Virus record (IMG/VR): IMGVR_UViG_3300029571_000007
Span: 19,007-83,006 of that record
Strand: one strand, 5' to 3'
DNA length: 64,000 nt
DNA from: a virus
Taxonomy: Duplodnaviria; Heunggongvirae; Uroviricota; Caudoviricetes
A model generated the notes under the pieces. That model was not told where the DNA came from, ran no database searches, and saw only the letters and a program-made list of their open reading frames with translations. Shown here piece after piece: positions 60,258-64,000 of this stretch. The first letter of the stretch is position 1. Each line of letters opens with the position of its first letter. Both the position numbers and the translations under genes were made by a program.

Positions 60258-60441
60258 AACATTGTTAAAAAGTATTGTATTAAAAAAGAAAATGCAAATT
60301 GAAATAATGGAAACCTTGTCTGATATTTGTTTATATATGCAATTAGACGGATTCAAAAAAGATAATGGGTATGGTCAATTTATGTATACACACTATAGCA
60401 ATTTACAGGATATTTTAAAAGAGTATAAGGGAGAAAAATAA
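60247..60441 (+). CDS. Hypothetical small protein (start uncertain)
   Basis: ORF track (non-ATG start). Confidence 0.3.
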   Translation: MLIKTLLKSIVLKKKMQIEIMETLSDICLYMQLDGFKKDNGYGQFMYTHYSNLQDILKEYKGEK

Positions 60442-60443
60442 CT

Positions 60444-60644
60444 ATGCCAGATATTACAATGTGTACAAGCAAAACATGTGAAAGAAGAAAACAGTGTTAT
60501 AGAGCAATAGCAAAGCCAGATAAGATACAAAGTTATGCTGATTTTACTTCGTTATGTGCAGATAGAGATTTTAGGTGTCAATGGATTGTTACTGACAGAG
60601 AAGTACTTGCTGATGATATAAGTAGCTTGTTAGTAAGATGCTAA
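60444..60644 (+). CDS. Hypothetical small Cys-rich protein
   Basis: ORF track; AAGGGAG SD. Confidence 0.5.
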   Translation: MPDITMCTSKTCERRKQCYRAIAKPDKIQSYADFTSLCADRDFRCQWIVTDREVLADDISSLLVRC

Positions 60645-61023
60645 AATACAGGAGAATAATAAAATGGATAAAGATACAAATAAGCGAAATGAACTTAGAA
60701 AACAGTTACAAGCCTTATCAAAGGAGCGAATTATTGAATTATATATTCACTTATTCATGAATTTTGCTAATGATAAGGATGAAACCGATTGGGAAGATAT
60801 TAAATAGAAGAGAACAGATTGCACAAGTTTACCGACCTAAACAATCTGCTCAGAGAATAAAATATAGGATAAACTATATATGTTCTATTATAACAAATCT
60901 ATTTGGCTAATTCAAGCCAGTTTATCCTATAACAATTAGTCTTTTGACTACGGGCTATTTTGAGTCCGAATAGTGAGGATTATATCACTCACTGAAAAGT
61001 ATGTAATTTATATGTAATTTGAA

Positions 61024-61186
61024 GTTTTGGAAGTATATGAAATTACATACTAACAAAATATCTGGCAACAGAGAGGAGATGTTTCAGTTGTTTTGGAAGT
61101 ATAGTTACATACTAGCAAAATTACATAATATGTATCGACACAAGTTATAAATTTTTAGAAGTATATAAAATTACATCTCATTAAAA
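61024..61186 (+). CRISPR. Mini array C: 3 repeats (36, 32, 36 nt; degenerate) with 30- and 29-nt spacers, preceded by leader with anti-repeat
   Basis: R1 GTTTTGGAAGTATATGAAATTACATACTAACAAAAT 61024-61059; S1 61060-61089; R2 61090-61121 (4-nt deletion); S2 61122-61150; R3 ATTTTTAGAAGTATATAAAATTACATCTCATTAAAA 61151-61186. Confidence 0.55.
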
Positions 61187-61286
61187 GAATATATAAATGA
61201 AATTAAAATCAATTCTATTGCGGTAGATTTTACTGCCGAATCGTGAGTGCAATGCAACTCATGAAAATCTATGTAATAAGTTTGAG

Positions 61287-61454
61287 GTTTTAGATACATA
61301 TAAAATTACATAGGTATAAAACAAACCTGTTGAAATTGTTGAAGATATAGAAGTTTTAGATACATATAAAATTACATAGGTATAAAACACTTGCGTTGTT
61401 GTACTTGTAAGCTGTTTAATTTTAGAGATATTTAAAATTACAAAAAATATAAAA
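61287..61454 (+). CRISPR. Mini array A: 3 repeats of 36 nt (third degenerate, overlapping nuclease SD) with two 30-nt spacers
   Basis: R1 GTTTTAGATACATATAAAATTACATAGGTATAAAAC 61287-61322; S1 61323-61352; R2 identical 61353-61388; S2 61389-61418; R3 ATTTTAGAGATATTTAAAATTACAAAAAATATAAAA 61419-61454. Confidence 0.75.
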
Positions 61455-61469
61455 GGAGATTTACAAATT

Positions 61470-62858
61470 ATGGGAAACAATAGAATGACAATTTGTAGAA
61501 AAATTAAATTATTTCCAGTAGGAGATAAGGATGAAATCAATAGAGTATATAACTTTATTAGAAATGGTCAGTATGCTCAATATCAGGCTTGTAACCTGCT
61601 TATGGGACAGCTTATGAGTGAATATTACAAATATAATCGTGATATTAAGAATGAAGAATTTAAGGCAAGACAGAAAGAAATAATGACAAACTCTAATATC
61701 ATATTAAAAGATATTGATTTTGCAACTGGTGTAGACACTCCATCAGCCGTTACTCAGAAAGTCAAGCAGGATTTCAGCACAGCTTTAAAGAATGGATTGG
61801 CTAAAGGTGAACGAACTGTAACAAATTATAAGAGAACTAATCCACTTATTACAAGAGGCAGAAACTTAACTTTTTATCATGAGTATGAAACATATCATGA
61901 TTTTTTAGACAAGATTAATGATTCTGATTTGGCGGTATATGTCAAGTGGGTTAATAAAATTGTATTTAAGGTTGTGTTTGGCAATCCGCATAGGTCATTA
62001 GAGTTAAGATCTGTTATTCAGAATATATTAGAAGAGAATTATAAAGTGCAAGGAAGTAGCATTGAAATTGATGGTAAGTCAATCATTTTAAATCTCTCAA
62101 TATCTATTCCAAAACAACTTAGAGAGCTGGATGAAAATATAGTAGTAGGTGTTGATTTAGGCATTGCAGTTCCTGCTATGTGTGCTTTAAACAATAATCT
62201 TTACGAGAGATTGGCAATTGGAAATGCAGATGATTTTCTAAGAATAAGAACTAAAATGCAAGCTCAGAGAAAAAGATTACAGAAGTCATTACGAAATACT
62301 TCTGGTGGTCATGGTAGAGCAAAGAAACTGAAAGCATTAGAAAGATTGCAGAAAGCAGAAGTACATTTTGTTGAAACATATTGTCATATGATAAGTAAAA
62401 GAGTCGTTGATTTTGCTTTAAAACATAATGCTAAATACATAAATATTGAGAATTTAACAGGATATGATACAAGTGATTTTATCCTGAGAAATTGGAGTTA
62501 TTATAAACTTCAAGATTATATTACATATAAAGCAGCTAAATACGGAATAGAAGTAAGAAAAATCAATCCTTGTTATACATCACAGATTTGTAGTGTATGT
62601 GGTAATTGGGAGTTTGGTCAGAGAAAGTCACAGTCAGTATTTGAATGTGCAAATGAGAATTGTGATAGTCATAAAAAATATGAAAAAACTGGTTTTAATG
62701 CAGACTTCAATGCTGCCAGAAACATTGCAATGTCAACTCTTTGGATGGGAAGTGGACAAGTTACTGAAAAGAGTAAACAGGAAGCAAGAGAATATTATGA
62801 TATCTCTGAAAAATATGAACAAAGTAAGAATGGTTCAGAGAATAATAAAGTAGCTTAA
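61470..62858 (+). CDS. TnpB/Cas12-like RNA-guided nuclease candidate (462 aa), RuvC D-E-D plus zinc finger; compact type V-like effector
   Basis: N-terminal RKIKLFPVGDKDEINRVYNF (TnpB-like WED start); RuvC-I VVGVDLGIAVPAM; RuvC-II KYINIENL; zinc finger CYTSQICSVCGN...FECANENCDSH; RuvC-III FNADFNAARNIA. Confidence 0.8.
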   Translation: MGNNRMTICRKIKLFPVGDKDEINRVYNFIRNGQYAQYQACNLLMGQLMSEYYKYNRDIKNEEFKARQKEIMTNSNIILKDIDFATGVDTPSAVTQKVKQDFSTALKNGLAKGERTVTNYKRTNPLITRGRNLTFYHEYETYHDFLDKINDSDLAVYVKWVNKIVFKVVFGNPHRSLELRSVIQNILEENYKVQGSSIEIDGKSIILNLSISIPKQLRELDENIVVGVDLGIAVPAMCALNNNLYERLAIGNADDFLRIRTKMQAQRKRLQKSLRNTSGGHGRAKKLKALERLQKAEVHFVETYCHMISKRVVDFALKHNAKYINIENLTGYDTSDFILRNWSYYKLQDYITYKAAKYGIEVRKINPCYTSQICSVCGNWEFGQRKSQSVFECANENCDSHKKYEKTGFNADFNAARNIAMSTLWMGSGQVTEKSKQEAREYYDISEKYEQSKNGSENNKVA

Positions 62859-62968
62859 GTGCTACTTAATCAATCGTAAGATTGCAGGTGATTTTGCACC
62901 TGAATGGCGAGGTTGTTAATTAATGGCACTCGTTAGAATCTATGTTAATAGTATCTGTGTGATTTGAG

Positions 62969-63070
62969 GTTTTAGATATGTTTAATTTAACATAGATACA
63001 AAACTACTTTAACCAACAATATACTATGTTCTTTGTTTTAGATATGTTTAATTTAACATAGATACAAAAC
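62969..63070 (+). CRISPR. Mini array B: 2 identical 36-nt repeats with one 30-nt spacer, downstream of nuclease gene, preceded by homologous leader
   Basis: R1 GTTTTAGATATGTTTAATTTAACATAGATACAAAAC 62969-63004; S1 63005-63034; R2 identical 63035-63070. Confidence 0.7.
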
Positions 63071-63342
63071 ACGGTTAAGACAACATTTTACTCAGTAAAA
63101 TGATTATTCAATATATACTACAGAAATGTTGAGATTATCAAGCTAATGGAAGAAAAATATAATACGAAAAGGAGAATAGTTAAATGTCAGTATTTTTTAT
63201 ATTAGTTTTAATAGGATTAATAATTTTATGGTTTCTACTGTCACCTTTATTTGAAAAAATTGGTAAGTTTGTTATCAATGTTATAAATAAAGTATTTTCG
63301 ACAGATGAAATAAATAATAACGAAGAAAAGGAGACAAAAGAA

Positions 63343-64000
63343 TGAAGAAAACAATCGGAGGAGTAGTAACAGTAGTAGTAATTGTTGTTGTAGCAATATT
63401 ATTATTTATGTCAAGTGTGCGTGTACCTGCTGGCTATATTGCCGTACAGTACAGTATGTCGGGTGGAGTAAAAGGCGATATTCTTACACAAGGATGGCAT
63501 TTAAAGTCACCAACTGTAAAAACGACACTTTACTCGGTGAGTCTTGAACAGAGTTATTTAACATCTGGTAAGGACGGAGACTCTAAAGATGATGACAGCT
63601 TTTCAGCGAGTTCATCTGAGGGTAAGGCTATGCAGATAGATCTTACATTTACATATCAGTATAGTCCTGATAAGGTAGCTGATCTATTTACAAGATTTAG
63701 AGGACAATCTGGAAAGGAAGTAAGAGACAGTTTTATTAAACCTAACATTATTTCTTGGACTAAAGAAATTGTTGCTAACTATAAGGTGTCAGATATTCTT
63801 GGTTCTGAAAGAGCAAATGTAAATACAGCATTAACTGATTATCTTAATAAGAAGTTTGAACCATATGGTATAGCGATTAGTAATGTATCATTGATTAATA
63901 TTTCCGTTGATACAAAGACACAGGAAGCTATTAATGCAAAGATTACAGCACAGCAGGCAGCCGAAACTCAGGAAATTAATAATCAGACAGCTATTAATAA
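63343..64000 (+). CDS. SPFH/band-7 (prohibitin/HflC-like) membrane protein, partial (3' end off-window)
   Basis: N-terminal TM segment then VRVPAGYIAVQYSMSGGVKGDILTQGWHLKSP...ISNVSLINISVD typical of SPFH domain; AAGGAGAC SD. Confidence 0.65.

What the first reader, a model, noticed from the sequence alone, without database searches (positions are those of the whole stretch)
61419..61472. Degenerate terminal repeat of array A overlaps the nuclease ribosome-binding site: possible autoregulation
Repeat A3 (61419-61454) ends in AAAAGGAG, which forms the Shine-Dalgarno for the ATG at 61470. The array and nuclease gene are therefore necessarily co-transcribed, the array lying in the 5' UTR. Any binding or processing of the last repeat by the effector would occlude or remove its own SD. 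This would be a built-in negative feedback on nuclease dosage, potentially important for a phage that must avoid self-damage.
Basis: inference. Interest (0 to 1): 0.55.

Follow-up and report, generated by a model that had tools for sequence, protein, structure and literature searches.

The report
Decayed last CRISPR repeat beside ribosome site
The last, worn-out repeat of a small phage CRISPR array runs straight into the ribosome-binding site of its miniature Cas12f nuclease gene, but it has lost the pairing site that loads the nuclease, so this looks like ordinary genome compaction rather than a self-regulating switch.

Summary
A third repeat sits at 61419-61454, in phase with array A (period 66). 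GGAG (61455-61458) follows it directly, 11 nt before the ATG at 61470.

The gene encodes a 462-aa type V-F1 Cas12f. Its closest solved relative is 8HR5 (CnCas12f1), E 8e-88. Three tracrRNA + mini-array modules serve it, all on the + strand.

Co-transcription of array A and the nuclease is likely. Only 15 nt separate A3 from the ATG, and no terminator-like site lies between them.

The autoregulation idea is not supported, for three reasons:
- **A3 has lost its pairing site.** It keeps its 5' 24 nt and the 5-nt pseudoknot segment, but ATTACATAG has become ATTACAAAA. The duplex with its own tracrRNA drops from -11.9 to -4.3 kcal/mol, which is the level of shuffled repeats.
- **The junction is not conserved.** At 88% protein identity the SD lies 11 nt further on. 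At 83% the last repeat is cut to 15 nt. At 87% there is no upstream array, and a promoter-like extended -10 motif sits upstream of the SD.
- **Several clades carry arrays only downstream of the gene.**

The verdict is an ordinary degenerate trailer repeat in a compact phage operon. A few relatives, notably L035, do keep an intact repeat fused to the ribosome site, so RNA-level self-capture remains a testable minority reading.

The parts
60903..60920 (+). Terminator-like hairpin followed by a T-run, just upstream of the first tracr module. Likely the upstream boundary of the CRISPR transcription unit.
   Evidence: one of only two terminator-like sites in 60400-63400. Similar hairpins precede the first module in relatives.
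60946..61006 (+). tracrRNA-like scaffold of module A0: hairpin 1 with loop ATTTTG, hairpin 2, anti-repeat GTATGTAAT.
   Evidence: nhmmer 51 bits. The loop and anti-repeat covary with the A0 repeats.
61024..61187 (+). Mini-array A0: repeats at 61024-61059, 61090-61121 and 61152-61187. The last one is degenerate.
61216..61276 (+). tracrRNA-like scaffold of module A: hairpin 1 GGTAG-ATTTTA-CTGCC, hairpin 2, anti-repeat ATCTATGTAAT.
   Evidence: The fold of tracr A plus repeat 1 has z = -3.0 and an 11-bp anti-repeat:repeat duplex. Pseudoknot loop ATTTTA pairs with repeat TAAAA.
61287..61418 (+). Functional part of array A: repeat A1 61287-61322, spacer 61323-61352, repeat A2 61353-61388, spacer 61389-61418.
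   Evidence: The last spacer is shared with sister loci L001, L002 and L018.
61419..61442 (+). Conserved 5' two-thirds of the terminal repeat A3.
   Evidence: 1 mismatch to the sister-clade repeat, 0 expected by chance. In phase with the array (period 66).
61443..61454 (+). Degenerate 3' third of A3. The long anti-repeat site is destroyed (TAGG replaced by an A-run). The pseudoknot segment TAAAA (61450-61454) is retained.
61452..61458 (+). Shine-Dalgarno sequence AAAGGAG of cas12f (core GGAG 61455-61458), 11 nt before the ATG.
   Evidence: Conserved in 18 sister loci. The 5' UTR shows no structure beyond shuffles (z = 0.08).
61470..62858 (+). cas12f, 462 aa, a type V-F1 miniature RNA-guided nuclease. 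RuvC residues D229, E327 and D412 and the zinc-finger cysteines are conserved.
62880..62950 (+). tracrRNA-like scaffold of module B, directly after the stop codon (the position of the omega-RNA in TnpB elements).
   Evidence: Nearly every relative has one at this position.
62969..63070 (+). Mini-array B: repeats 62969-63004 and 63035-63070, spacer 63005-63034.

Best explanation
Positions 61419-61454 are the degenerate trailer-end repeat of a phage-borne type V-F1 (Cas12f) mini-array. The array lies directly upstream of cas12f, so the last repeat runs into the gene's ribosome-binding site.

Inferred transcript: tracr A0 - array A0 - tracr A - array A - cas12f - tracr B - array B are most likely transcribed together, or from a few promoters on one strand.

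Inferred guide: each tracrRNA pairs with its own repeats through two contacts. One is a long anti-repeat duplex with repeat nt 17-27. The other is a 5-bp pseudoknot between the loop of hairpin 1 and repeat nt 31-35. The spacer 3' of the repeat is the guide.

The last repeat has no spacer to serve, so its 3' part is free to decay. In this phage it has lost the long anti-repeat site, so tracrRNA-Cas12f is not expected to load on it. The A-rich remnant plus GGAG simply serves as the 5' UTR and SD.

The juxtaposition is a by-product of compaction and repeat decay, not a selected feedback device.

Shown here: the anatomy, the covariation, the loss of pairing and the evolutionary lability. Inferred: the transcript structure and the absence of binding.
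For: - **Protein identity.** Pfam Cas12f1-like_TNB 1.7e-15, NCBIfam guided_TnpB 3.6e-47. PDB 8hr5 7.8e-88, 9nzp 1.8e-81, followed by other Cas12f structures.
- **Guide model.** 194 tracr-like sites occur in 81 of 90 loci, all but one on the gene's strand. Seven compensatory loop/repeat pseudoknot types were found. Cognate anti-repeat duplexes average -12.3 kcal/mol against -8.3 for non-cognate pairs. This matches the published Cas12f1 long and short repeat/anti-repeat architecture (PMC11246509).
- **Loss of pairing in A3.** -4.3 against -11.9 kcal/mol, with shuffled repeats at -4.7. The 3' 18 nt do not match the repeat.
- **Array polarity.** Trailer spacers are shared among sister phages while tracr-proximal spacers differ, as expected if the cas12f side is the old end.
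- **Lability of the junction.** The SD is at +0 in the window clade, +11 in L105 (88% identity) and directly after a 15-nt repeat stump in L108 (83%). L106 (87%) has no upstream array and has an extended -10-like motif. The distance is 0 to about 31 nt in 45-73% relatives.
- **No uniform state of the last repeat.** Pairing with the cognate tracr is lost or clearly weakened in 9 of 14 clade representatives and kept in 5. This pattern fits neutral decay.
- **Arrays only downstream.** Clades L043/45/47/72, L057, L059-L068, L071 and L073 have no upstream array.
Against: - The pseudoknot segment TAAAA is still present in A3, immediately before GGAG, and 6 nt of the anti-repeat site remain. Weak binding cannot be excluded.
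- The junction is identical or nearly so in 18 sister loci whose upstream repeats and spacers have been exchanged. That could reflect constraint, although the SD itself would explain it.
- Some relatives (L035, L049, L052, L023) keep a pairing-competent last or only repeat 3-17 nt from the SD.
- No transcript data exist for any of these loci.
Confidence: 0.7

Rival explanations
1. tracrRNA-Cas12f binds the last repeat of the pre-crRNA/mRNA and takes the following bases (SD and start codon) as a pseudo-guide. This occludes or cuts off the ribosome-binding site, so nuclease abundance limits its own translation.
For: - The SD begins at the first pseudo-guide position.
- The pseudoknot segment TAAAA is retained.
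- There is no room for a separate promoter.
- L035 has a solo tracr plus a fully pairing-competent repeat whose guide position is its own SD/ATG.
- tracrRNAs can turn repeat-like stretches of mRNAs into guides (PMC11246509).
Against: - The long anti-repeat site of A3 is destroyed, with duplex energy at the level of shuffled repeats.
- Scrambling the long or the short anti-repeat abolished AsCas12f1 guide function.
- The junction is not conserved at 83-88% identity, and an 87% relative has no upstream array.
- Many clades have arrays only downstream.
- The number of A's before GGAG varies among sister loci, which shifts the register.
Confidence: 0.1
2. Selected insulation, the opposite of feedback. 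The 3' part of the last repeat is kept degenerate because an intact repeat would let tracrRNA-Cas12f capture and destroy the nuclease's own mRNA leader. Degeneracy therefore protects expression.
For: - The damage is concentrated in the tracr-pairing part, while the 5' 24 nt stay repeat-like and are even homogenised with the internal repeats in L003, L005 and L011.
- 9 of 14 clade representatives have lost or clearly weakened pairing.
Against: - 5 of 14 clades keep pairing next to the SD, so any such selection is not general.
- The 3' part of a trailer repeat serves no spacer, so neutral decay predicts the same pattern.
Confidence: 0.15
3. DNA-level autorepression of the CreR / crRNA-like kind. 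The RNA made from A3 plus the following bases guides Cas12f back to the start of its own gene and blocks transcription.
For: Degenerate mini-CRISPRs repress cas genes in types I-B, I-E and V-A (10.1101/2023.03.10.532045). The pseudo-spacer is by construction identical to the gene's 5' end.
Against: - The PAM position is occupied by the repeat end (AAA/AAG). The only protospacers found have 5' CCA or TCA, and the closest solved relative, CnCas12f1, is described as C-rich-PAM (Su et al., as cited in PMC13186708).
- A perfect 20-nt match with an active RuvC site would cut rather than repress.
- A3 is not expected to load.
Confidence: 0.03
4. A3 and the A-rich stretch hold a dedicated cas12f promoter, so the gene is not co-transcribed with the array.
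For: -10-like hexamers lie inside the repeat (TAAAAT 61433-61438, TATAAA 61447-61452; read). L106 has an extended -10-like motif at the equivalent place.
Against: - The scan found no two-hexamer site on the + strand between 61209 and 61485, and the overall count equals that of shuffles.
- The -35 position falls in a spacer that differs between sister loci.
- A start after TATAAA would remove the conserved SD.
Confidence: 0.05

Closest known systems
Type V-F1 CRISPR-Cas12f systems (CnCas12f1, PDB 8HR5; the Cas12f orthologues of PMC13186708, PDB 9NZP/9NZO; AsCas12f1, Un1Cas12f1)
   Same: - Miniature TnpB-derived nuclease with RuvC and zinc-finger (TNB) domains.
- 36-nt repeats.
- A tracrRNA that pairs with the repeat through a long anti-repeat stem and a 5-bp pseudoknot stem.
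- The guide lies 3' of the repeat.
- Protein similarity E 8e-88.
   Different: - It is encoded by phages.
- Three (in relatives up to five) tracr + mini-array modules serve one gene, each with its own co-varying pairing sequences.
- Two of the modules lie upstream of the gene. Conserved Cas12 arrays are usually downstream (PMC10691335).
- No activity, PAM or dimer data exist for this protein.
Degenerate terminal (trailer-end) repeat of CRISPR arrays
   Same: The last repeat of the array, on the side where spacers are shared among relatives, has diverged from the consensus. General knowledge of CRISPR arrays.
   Different: The decay is confined to the 3' third, and the remnant is fused to the SD of the effector gene.
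CreR / crRNA-like RNAs: degenerate mini-CRISPRs that autorepress cas genes (10.1101/2023.03.10.532045; 10.1101/2023.03.03.530964)
   Same: A degenerate repeat inside a cas locus, next to the effector gene's expression signals. The proposed outcome is negative feedback on the effector.
   Different: - Those RNAs guide the effector to DNA at a cas promoter through partial complementarity next to a PAM.
- Here there is no separate target and no PAM.
- The repeat has lost its loading site.
- The proposed action is on RNA in cis.
Long-form tracrRNA (natural single guide) autoregulation of Cas9 (10.1101/2020.05.21.102756)
   Same: A CRISPR RNA component reused to limit expression of its own effector.
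   Different: That is type II and acts at the DNA level on the cas9 promoter. No tracr-encoded match to a promoter was found here.
Non-canonical crRNAs made from mRNAs by tracrRNA pairing (introduction of PMC11246509)
   Same: A repeat-like stretch in an mRNA can be paired by a tracrRNA, and the adjoining mRNA bases then become the guide.
   Different: It requires a good anti-repeat match. A3 has only 6 contiguous pairs.
Translational autorepression by RNA-binding proteins that bind a mimic of their normal RNA ligand at their own ribosome-binding site (ribosomal-protein operons, phage T4 RegA and gp32, MS2 coat protein; from general knowledge)
   Same: The proposed logic: a copy of the protein's RNA ligand overlaps its own SD.
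   Different: In those systems the mimic keeps the binding determinants and is conserved. Here the determinants are lost and the arrangement is labile.

Membership tests
Type V-F1 CRISPR-Cas12f | Effector homologous to Cas12f1, with a split RuvC domain (D-E-D) and a zinc-finger/TNB domain, 400-700 aa | tested here: met
   462 aa. PF07282 1.7e-15. 8hr5 7.8e-88, followed by other Cas12f structures. D229, E327, D412 and C374/C377/C393 are invariant or nearly invariant in 14 homologues. The NCBIfam Cas12f2 model scores below its cutoff, as expected for an f1-type protein.
Type V-F1 CRISPR-Cas12f | Adjacent CRISPR array on the same strand | tested here: met
   Three mini-arrays of 36-nt repeats and 30-nt spacers. 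130 distinct spacers across relatives.
Type V-F1 CRISPR-Cas12f | tracrRNA with a long anti-repeat stem plus a pseudoknot short stem | tested here: met
   Covariation in 51 modules: seven compensatory pseudoknot types. Cognate duplexes are stronger than non-cognate ones. Fold z = -3.0. The architecture is as described in PMC11246509. Expression of the RNA was not tested.
Type V-F1 CRISPR-Cas12f | 5' PAM-dependent dsDNA cleavage as a homodimer on one guide RNA | not testable with these tools
   The only hint is one spacer with protospacers in three viral contigs, flanked 5' by CCA or TCA.
CreR / crRNA-like autoregulatory mini-CRISPR | Degenerate repeat(s) flanking a pseudo-spacer within the cas locus | tested here: met
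   A3 is degenerate and is followed by the gene's 5' end.
CreR / crRNA-like autoregulatory mini-CRISPR | Pseudo-spacer partially complementary to a separate target at the cas promoter, next to a functional PAM | tested here: not met
   No separate target exists. The sequence is its own locus, and the PAM position is the repeat end AAA/AAG, against CCA/TCA at the only protospacers found.
CreR / crRNA-like autoregulatory mini-CRISPR | The repeat still supports loading of the effector | tested here: not met
   The long anti-repeat duplex is -4.3 kcal/mol, the level of shuffled repeats. Every cognate pair in the family is -7.4 or stronger. This is prediction only, not a binding assay.
Translational autorepression through a ligand mimic at the SD | The mimic overlaps the SD or start codon | tested here: met
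   GGAG starts at the base after A3.
Translational autorepression through a ligand mimic at the SD | The mimic keeps the binding determinants and is conserved among relatives | tested here: not met
   The determinants are lost in the window. The junction differs at 83-88% identity and the array is absent at 87%. Pairing is kept in only 5 of 14 clades.
Translational autorepression through a ligand mimic at the SD | The protein represses its own translation | not testable with these tools
   Needs reporter fusions or ribosome toeprinting.

The most novel reading that the evidence does not exclude
In this phage Cas12f family, a repeat fused to the effector's ribosome-binding site may let tracrRNA-Cas12f capture the 5' end of its own mRNA as a pseudo-guide, masking the SD and AUG. 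This would be RNA-level, in-cis translational feedback, unlike the DNA-level CreR and tracr-L circuits. It would operate where the last or only repeat is still pairing-competent (L035, L049, L052, L023). In the window it would rest on the retained pseudoknot segment and 6 bp of anti-repeat, so it would be weak.
Probability: 0.08. Interest if true: 0.65.

Novelty: new member of a known kind. Interest (0 to 1): 0.22.

Why it matters
If the feedback idea were right, it would be a new way for a CRISPR effector to sense its own abundance through its guide-loading activity. That would matter for phages that carry a DNA nuclease and for tuning miniature editors.

The evidence instead says the element is a normal decayed trailer repeat, so the finding itself matters little.

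The work around it has more value:
- It identifies the nuclease as a phage-borne Cas12f1 relative.
- It defines its tracrRNA and the two pairing contacts by covariation.
- It shows an unusual layout of several self-contained tracr + mini-array modules around one gene. This may be of interest for guide design and for how arrays grow out of omega-RNA-like units.

Tried and rejected
- **GenBank phages.** blastn of the locus found no match.
- **Rfam.** A permissive scan of 60700-63300 found nothing. Cas12f tracrRNAs of this type are evidently not in the library.
- **Promoter and terminator scan.** The number of promoter-like sites equals that of shuffles, so it cannot place a promoter. A search for sigma-70 hexamers at a fixed distance upstream of 28 tracr modules gave no consistent site.
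- **SD sequestration by RNA structure.** Folding of the 5' UTR gave z = 0.08, so this was rejected.
- **Protospacers for a PAM.** 130 spacers against the window and all loci gave none. The concatenated spacers against GenBank phages gave none. Six exact-match scans of IMG/VR were run: five returned only the arrays themselves and one gave three protospacers. One protospacer family is too few for a PAM.
- **Cas12p 'hacker'.** This phage miniature Cas12 (10.1101/2025.01.20.633832) was considered as the family and rejected. It is 500-700 aa, and PDB 9jfs matches only at E 0.002.
- **Is TATAAAAGGAG simply the gene's own leader motif?** L025 carries it 19 nt after its last repeat. L016 aligns in exact repeat register. 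The question stays open, and either reading weakens the feedback model.
Full report
**1. What is at the coordinates**

The window holds a + strand ORF at 61470-62858 (462 aa) flanked by short repeat arrays. Array A has two identical 36-nt repeats: A1 at 61287-61322 and A2 at 61353-61388, both GTTTTAGATACATATAAAATTACATAGGTATAAAAC. They are separated by 30-nt spacers. A third copy, A3, starts exactly one period later at 61419.

The 5' 24 nt of A3 differ by one base from GTTTTAGAGATATTTAAAATTACA. That is the repeat variant used as the working repeat in sister phages. No such match is expected in shuffles of the window. The 3' 12 nt of A3 are degenerate. The 18-nt 3' part of the repeat finds A1 and A2 but not A3 within three mismatches.

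GGAG occupies 61455-61458, and AAAGGAG occupies 61452-61458. The ATG is 11 nt further on. The start codon is right, because the N-terminus aligns with CnCas12f1 from residue 8.

The SD core lies just after the repeat. The overlap is only the A-run and, in a gapped alignment, the first G.

**2. What the system is**

The protein matches Pfam Cas12f1-like_TNB (1.7e-15) and NCBIfam guided_TnpB (3.6e-47). Among solved structures the best matches are:
- 8hr5 at 7.8e-88. A paper cites it together with CnCas12f1, the C-rich-PAM Cas12f of Su et al.
- 9nzp at 1.8e-81 and 9nzo/9nzr at 4e-62. These are the Cas12f orthologues of PMC13186708.
- AsCas12f and Un1Cas12f further down.

Cas12p, the phage 'hacker' nuclease, matches only at 0.002, so this is not that family. 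The RuvC residues D229, E327 and D412 and the zinc-finger cysteines are conserved in 14 homologues. The protein is a type V-F1 Cas12f.

Relatives are abundant. There are 1,684 proteins below 1e-10 and 79 IMG/VR viral loci. Ten GTDB genome contigs also carry relatives, mostly from Lachnospiraceae, Roseburia, Clostridium, Ruminococcus and Anaerotignum.

**3. The guide RNA model**

Each of the three arrays in the window is preceded by a conserved stretch of about 65 nt. It has two hairpins and a stretch complementary to the middle of that array's own repeat:
- A0: GTATGTAAT pairs with ATTACATAC.
- A: CTATGTAAT pairs with ATTACATAG.
- B: CTATGTTAAT pairs with TTAACATAG.

A profile of these stretches finds 194 sites in 81 of 90 loci, all but one on the gene's strand. 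One site lies directly after the stop codon in nearly every locus.

In 51 distinct tracr + first-repeat modules, loop bases 2-6 of hairpin 1 are complementary to repeat bases 31-35. Seven compensatory combinations occur:

| Hairpin-1 loop | Repeat nt 31-35 |
|---|---|
| ATTTTG | CAAAA |
| ATTTTA | TAAAA |
| ACTTTG | CAAAG |
| ATTTCG | CGAAA |
| ATTTCA | TGAAA |
| ATTTGG | CCAAA |
| ATTTGA | TCAAA |

Cognate anti-repeat duplexes average -12.3 kcal/mol, against -8.3 for non-cognate pairs. Tracr A plus repeat 1 folds with z = -3.0.

This is the long repeat/anti-repeat stem plus pseudoknot short stem described for Cas12f1. In AsCas12f1, scrambling either stem abolished guide function (PMC11246509).

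The guide therefore lies 3' of the repeat, and the tracr side is the leader. In agreement, spacers next to cas12f are shared among sister phages while tracr-proximal spacers differ.

**4. Can A3 be bound?**

A3 keeps TAAAA (61450-61454), the pseudoknot segment for loop ATTTTA. Its long-stem site, however, is ATTACAAAA instead of ATTACATAG.

The predicted duplex with the cognate anti-repeat is -4.3 kcal/mol (6 bp). A1 and A2 give -11.9 (11 bp), and shuffled repeats give -4.7 +/- 1.9. Every one of 43 cognate pairs in the family is -7.4 or stronger.

On present knowledge of Cas12f1 guides, A3 should not load the effector. These are predictions, not binding data.

**5. Is the junction conserved?**

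All 18 sister loci (95-100% protein identity) carry ...AAATTACA-A(4-6)-TATAAA(A)-GGAG-N11-ATG. This holds even where the internal repeats and spacers have been exchanged. The number of A's varies, and L009 has lost the TATAAAA altogether. Beyond this clade the junction changes quickly:

| Locus | Protein identity | Junction |
|---|---|---|
| L105 | 88% | 11 extra bases lie between the last repeat and GGAG |
| L108 / L109 | 83% | last repeat cut to 15 nt, followed by tgagacAGGAG |
| L106 | 87% | no upstream array (see below) |

In L106 an upstream ORF and a terminator-like hairpin are followed by a relic anti-repeat. An extended -10-like TGATATAAT lies about 30 nt before the SD. The arrays lie only downstream.

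In relatives at 45-73% identity the distance from the last repeat to the SD ranges from 0 to about 31 nt. Clades L043/45/47/72, L057, L059-L068, L071 and L073 have no upstream array. Their SD lies in the end of an upstream ORF, or in L047 next to what looks like the 3' end of a tRNA gene (not confirmed with a tRNA scan).

Pairing of the last repeat with its own anti-repeat is lost or clearly weakened in 9 of 14 clade representatives. It is kept in 5: L035, L049, L052, L023 and, in part, L019.

This mixture is what neutral decay of a repeat that serves no spacer predicts. It fits neither a selected feedback element (which should stay intact) nor a universal insulation rule (which should always be broken).

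**6. Co-transcription**

- Only 15 nt separate A3 from the ATG.
- The scan found no + strand promoter-like site between 61209 and 61485.
- It found no terminator-like site between the hairpin at 60903-60920 and the gene.
- Every upstream array in the family ends 47 nt or less from the start codon.

The scan is no better than shuffles overall (19 sites against 18.6 expected). No consistent promoter was found upstream of the tracr modules. The transcript map therefore remains inferred. The 5' UTR has no structure beyond chance (z = 0.08).

**7. DNA-level self-targeting**

An RNA made from A3 would carry the gene's own first bases as guide. The PAM position is then the repeat end (AAA or AAG).

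Only one spacer with protospacers was found: GAAAGTCGGCAAAAGTACCATATTACAGCC, from L013-L017. It matches three other viral contigs of 41-49 kb, flanked 5' by CCA (TCA in one contig). This fits the C-rich PAM described for CnCas12f1, but n = 1.

A CreR-like circuit (10.1101/2023.03.10.532045) is therefore unlikely here.

**8. Verdict**

The element is the decayed trailer repeat of a compact phage Cas12f operon, reused as leader sequence. The feedback reading is not excluded but is disfavoured. I put it at about 0.1 for this window.

The most interesting residue is L035. There a solo tracr and a fully pairing-competent repeat (anti-repeat duplex -14.2 kcal/mol, pseudoknot ATTCAG/CTGAA) are fused to aaaGAGGtaataaattATG. 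That is where an RNA-level self-capture experiment would be most informative.

Conserved Cas12 arrays are reported to lie almost always downstream of the gene (PMC10691335). The two upstream modules here are thus the derived part of the locus, and module B occupies the ancestral omega-RNA position.

Noticed in passing
window 60946-61187, 61216-61454, 62880-63070: One cas12f gene is served by three self-contained tracrRNA + mini-array modules. Each has its own co-varying anti-repeat and pseudoknot loop. Relatives carry up to five such modules (L020, L022). I did not find this multi-tracr layout in the Cas12f papers I read.
   Followed up: partly
L091:3768-3797(-), L092:3174-3199, L095:4056-4085: A trailer spacer of sister phages L013-L017 matches three other viral contigs (41-49 kb). 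The 5' flank is CCA, or TCA in L091, which may be an escape variant. The site lies just upstream of a sigma-factor-like gene (phrog_351). This suggests phage-against-phage targeting and a C-containing 5' PAM.
   Followed up: partly
L035:2863-3003: A solo tracr plus one pairing-competent repeat with no spacer. Its guide position is the SD and start codon of its own cas12f. A normal tracr + two-repeat array lies downstream of the gene.
   Followed up: partly
L106:1380-1503: An 87%-identical Cas12f without any upstream array. A relic anti-repeat (AAGTATGTAAT) and a repeat 3' end (GGTATAAAA) surround an extended -10-like TGATATAAT about 30 nt before the SD. This looks as if a decayed module became the gene's promoter.
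   Followed up: no
window 61152-61209: The degenerate last repeat of array A0 overlaps a promoter-like TTAAAA-17-TAAAAT that would start transcription a few bases before tracr A. It is conserved in sister loci, but the scan as a whole is not above shuffles.
   Followed up: partly
window arrays and L001-L018: The arrays are polarised. Spacers next to cas12f are shared between sister phages and tracr-proximal ones differ. This implies ongoing spacer turnover. No adaptation genes were looked for beyond the immediate neighbours, whose PHROG hits are all of unknown function.
   Followed up: no
window 62848-62867: A 7-bp hairpin (AAGTAGCTTAAGTGCTACTT) spans the cas12f stop codon, directly before tracr B. 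It has no T-run on the + strand. It might mark an RNA processing or boundary site between the mRNA and tracr B.
   Followed up: no
window 63342-63998: The gene after array B matches phrog_200 ('lipoprotein', 8e-47). It is preceded by a 53-aa ORF with a hydrophobic sequence (phrog_35614).
   Followed up: no
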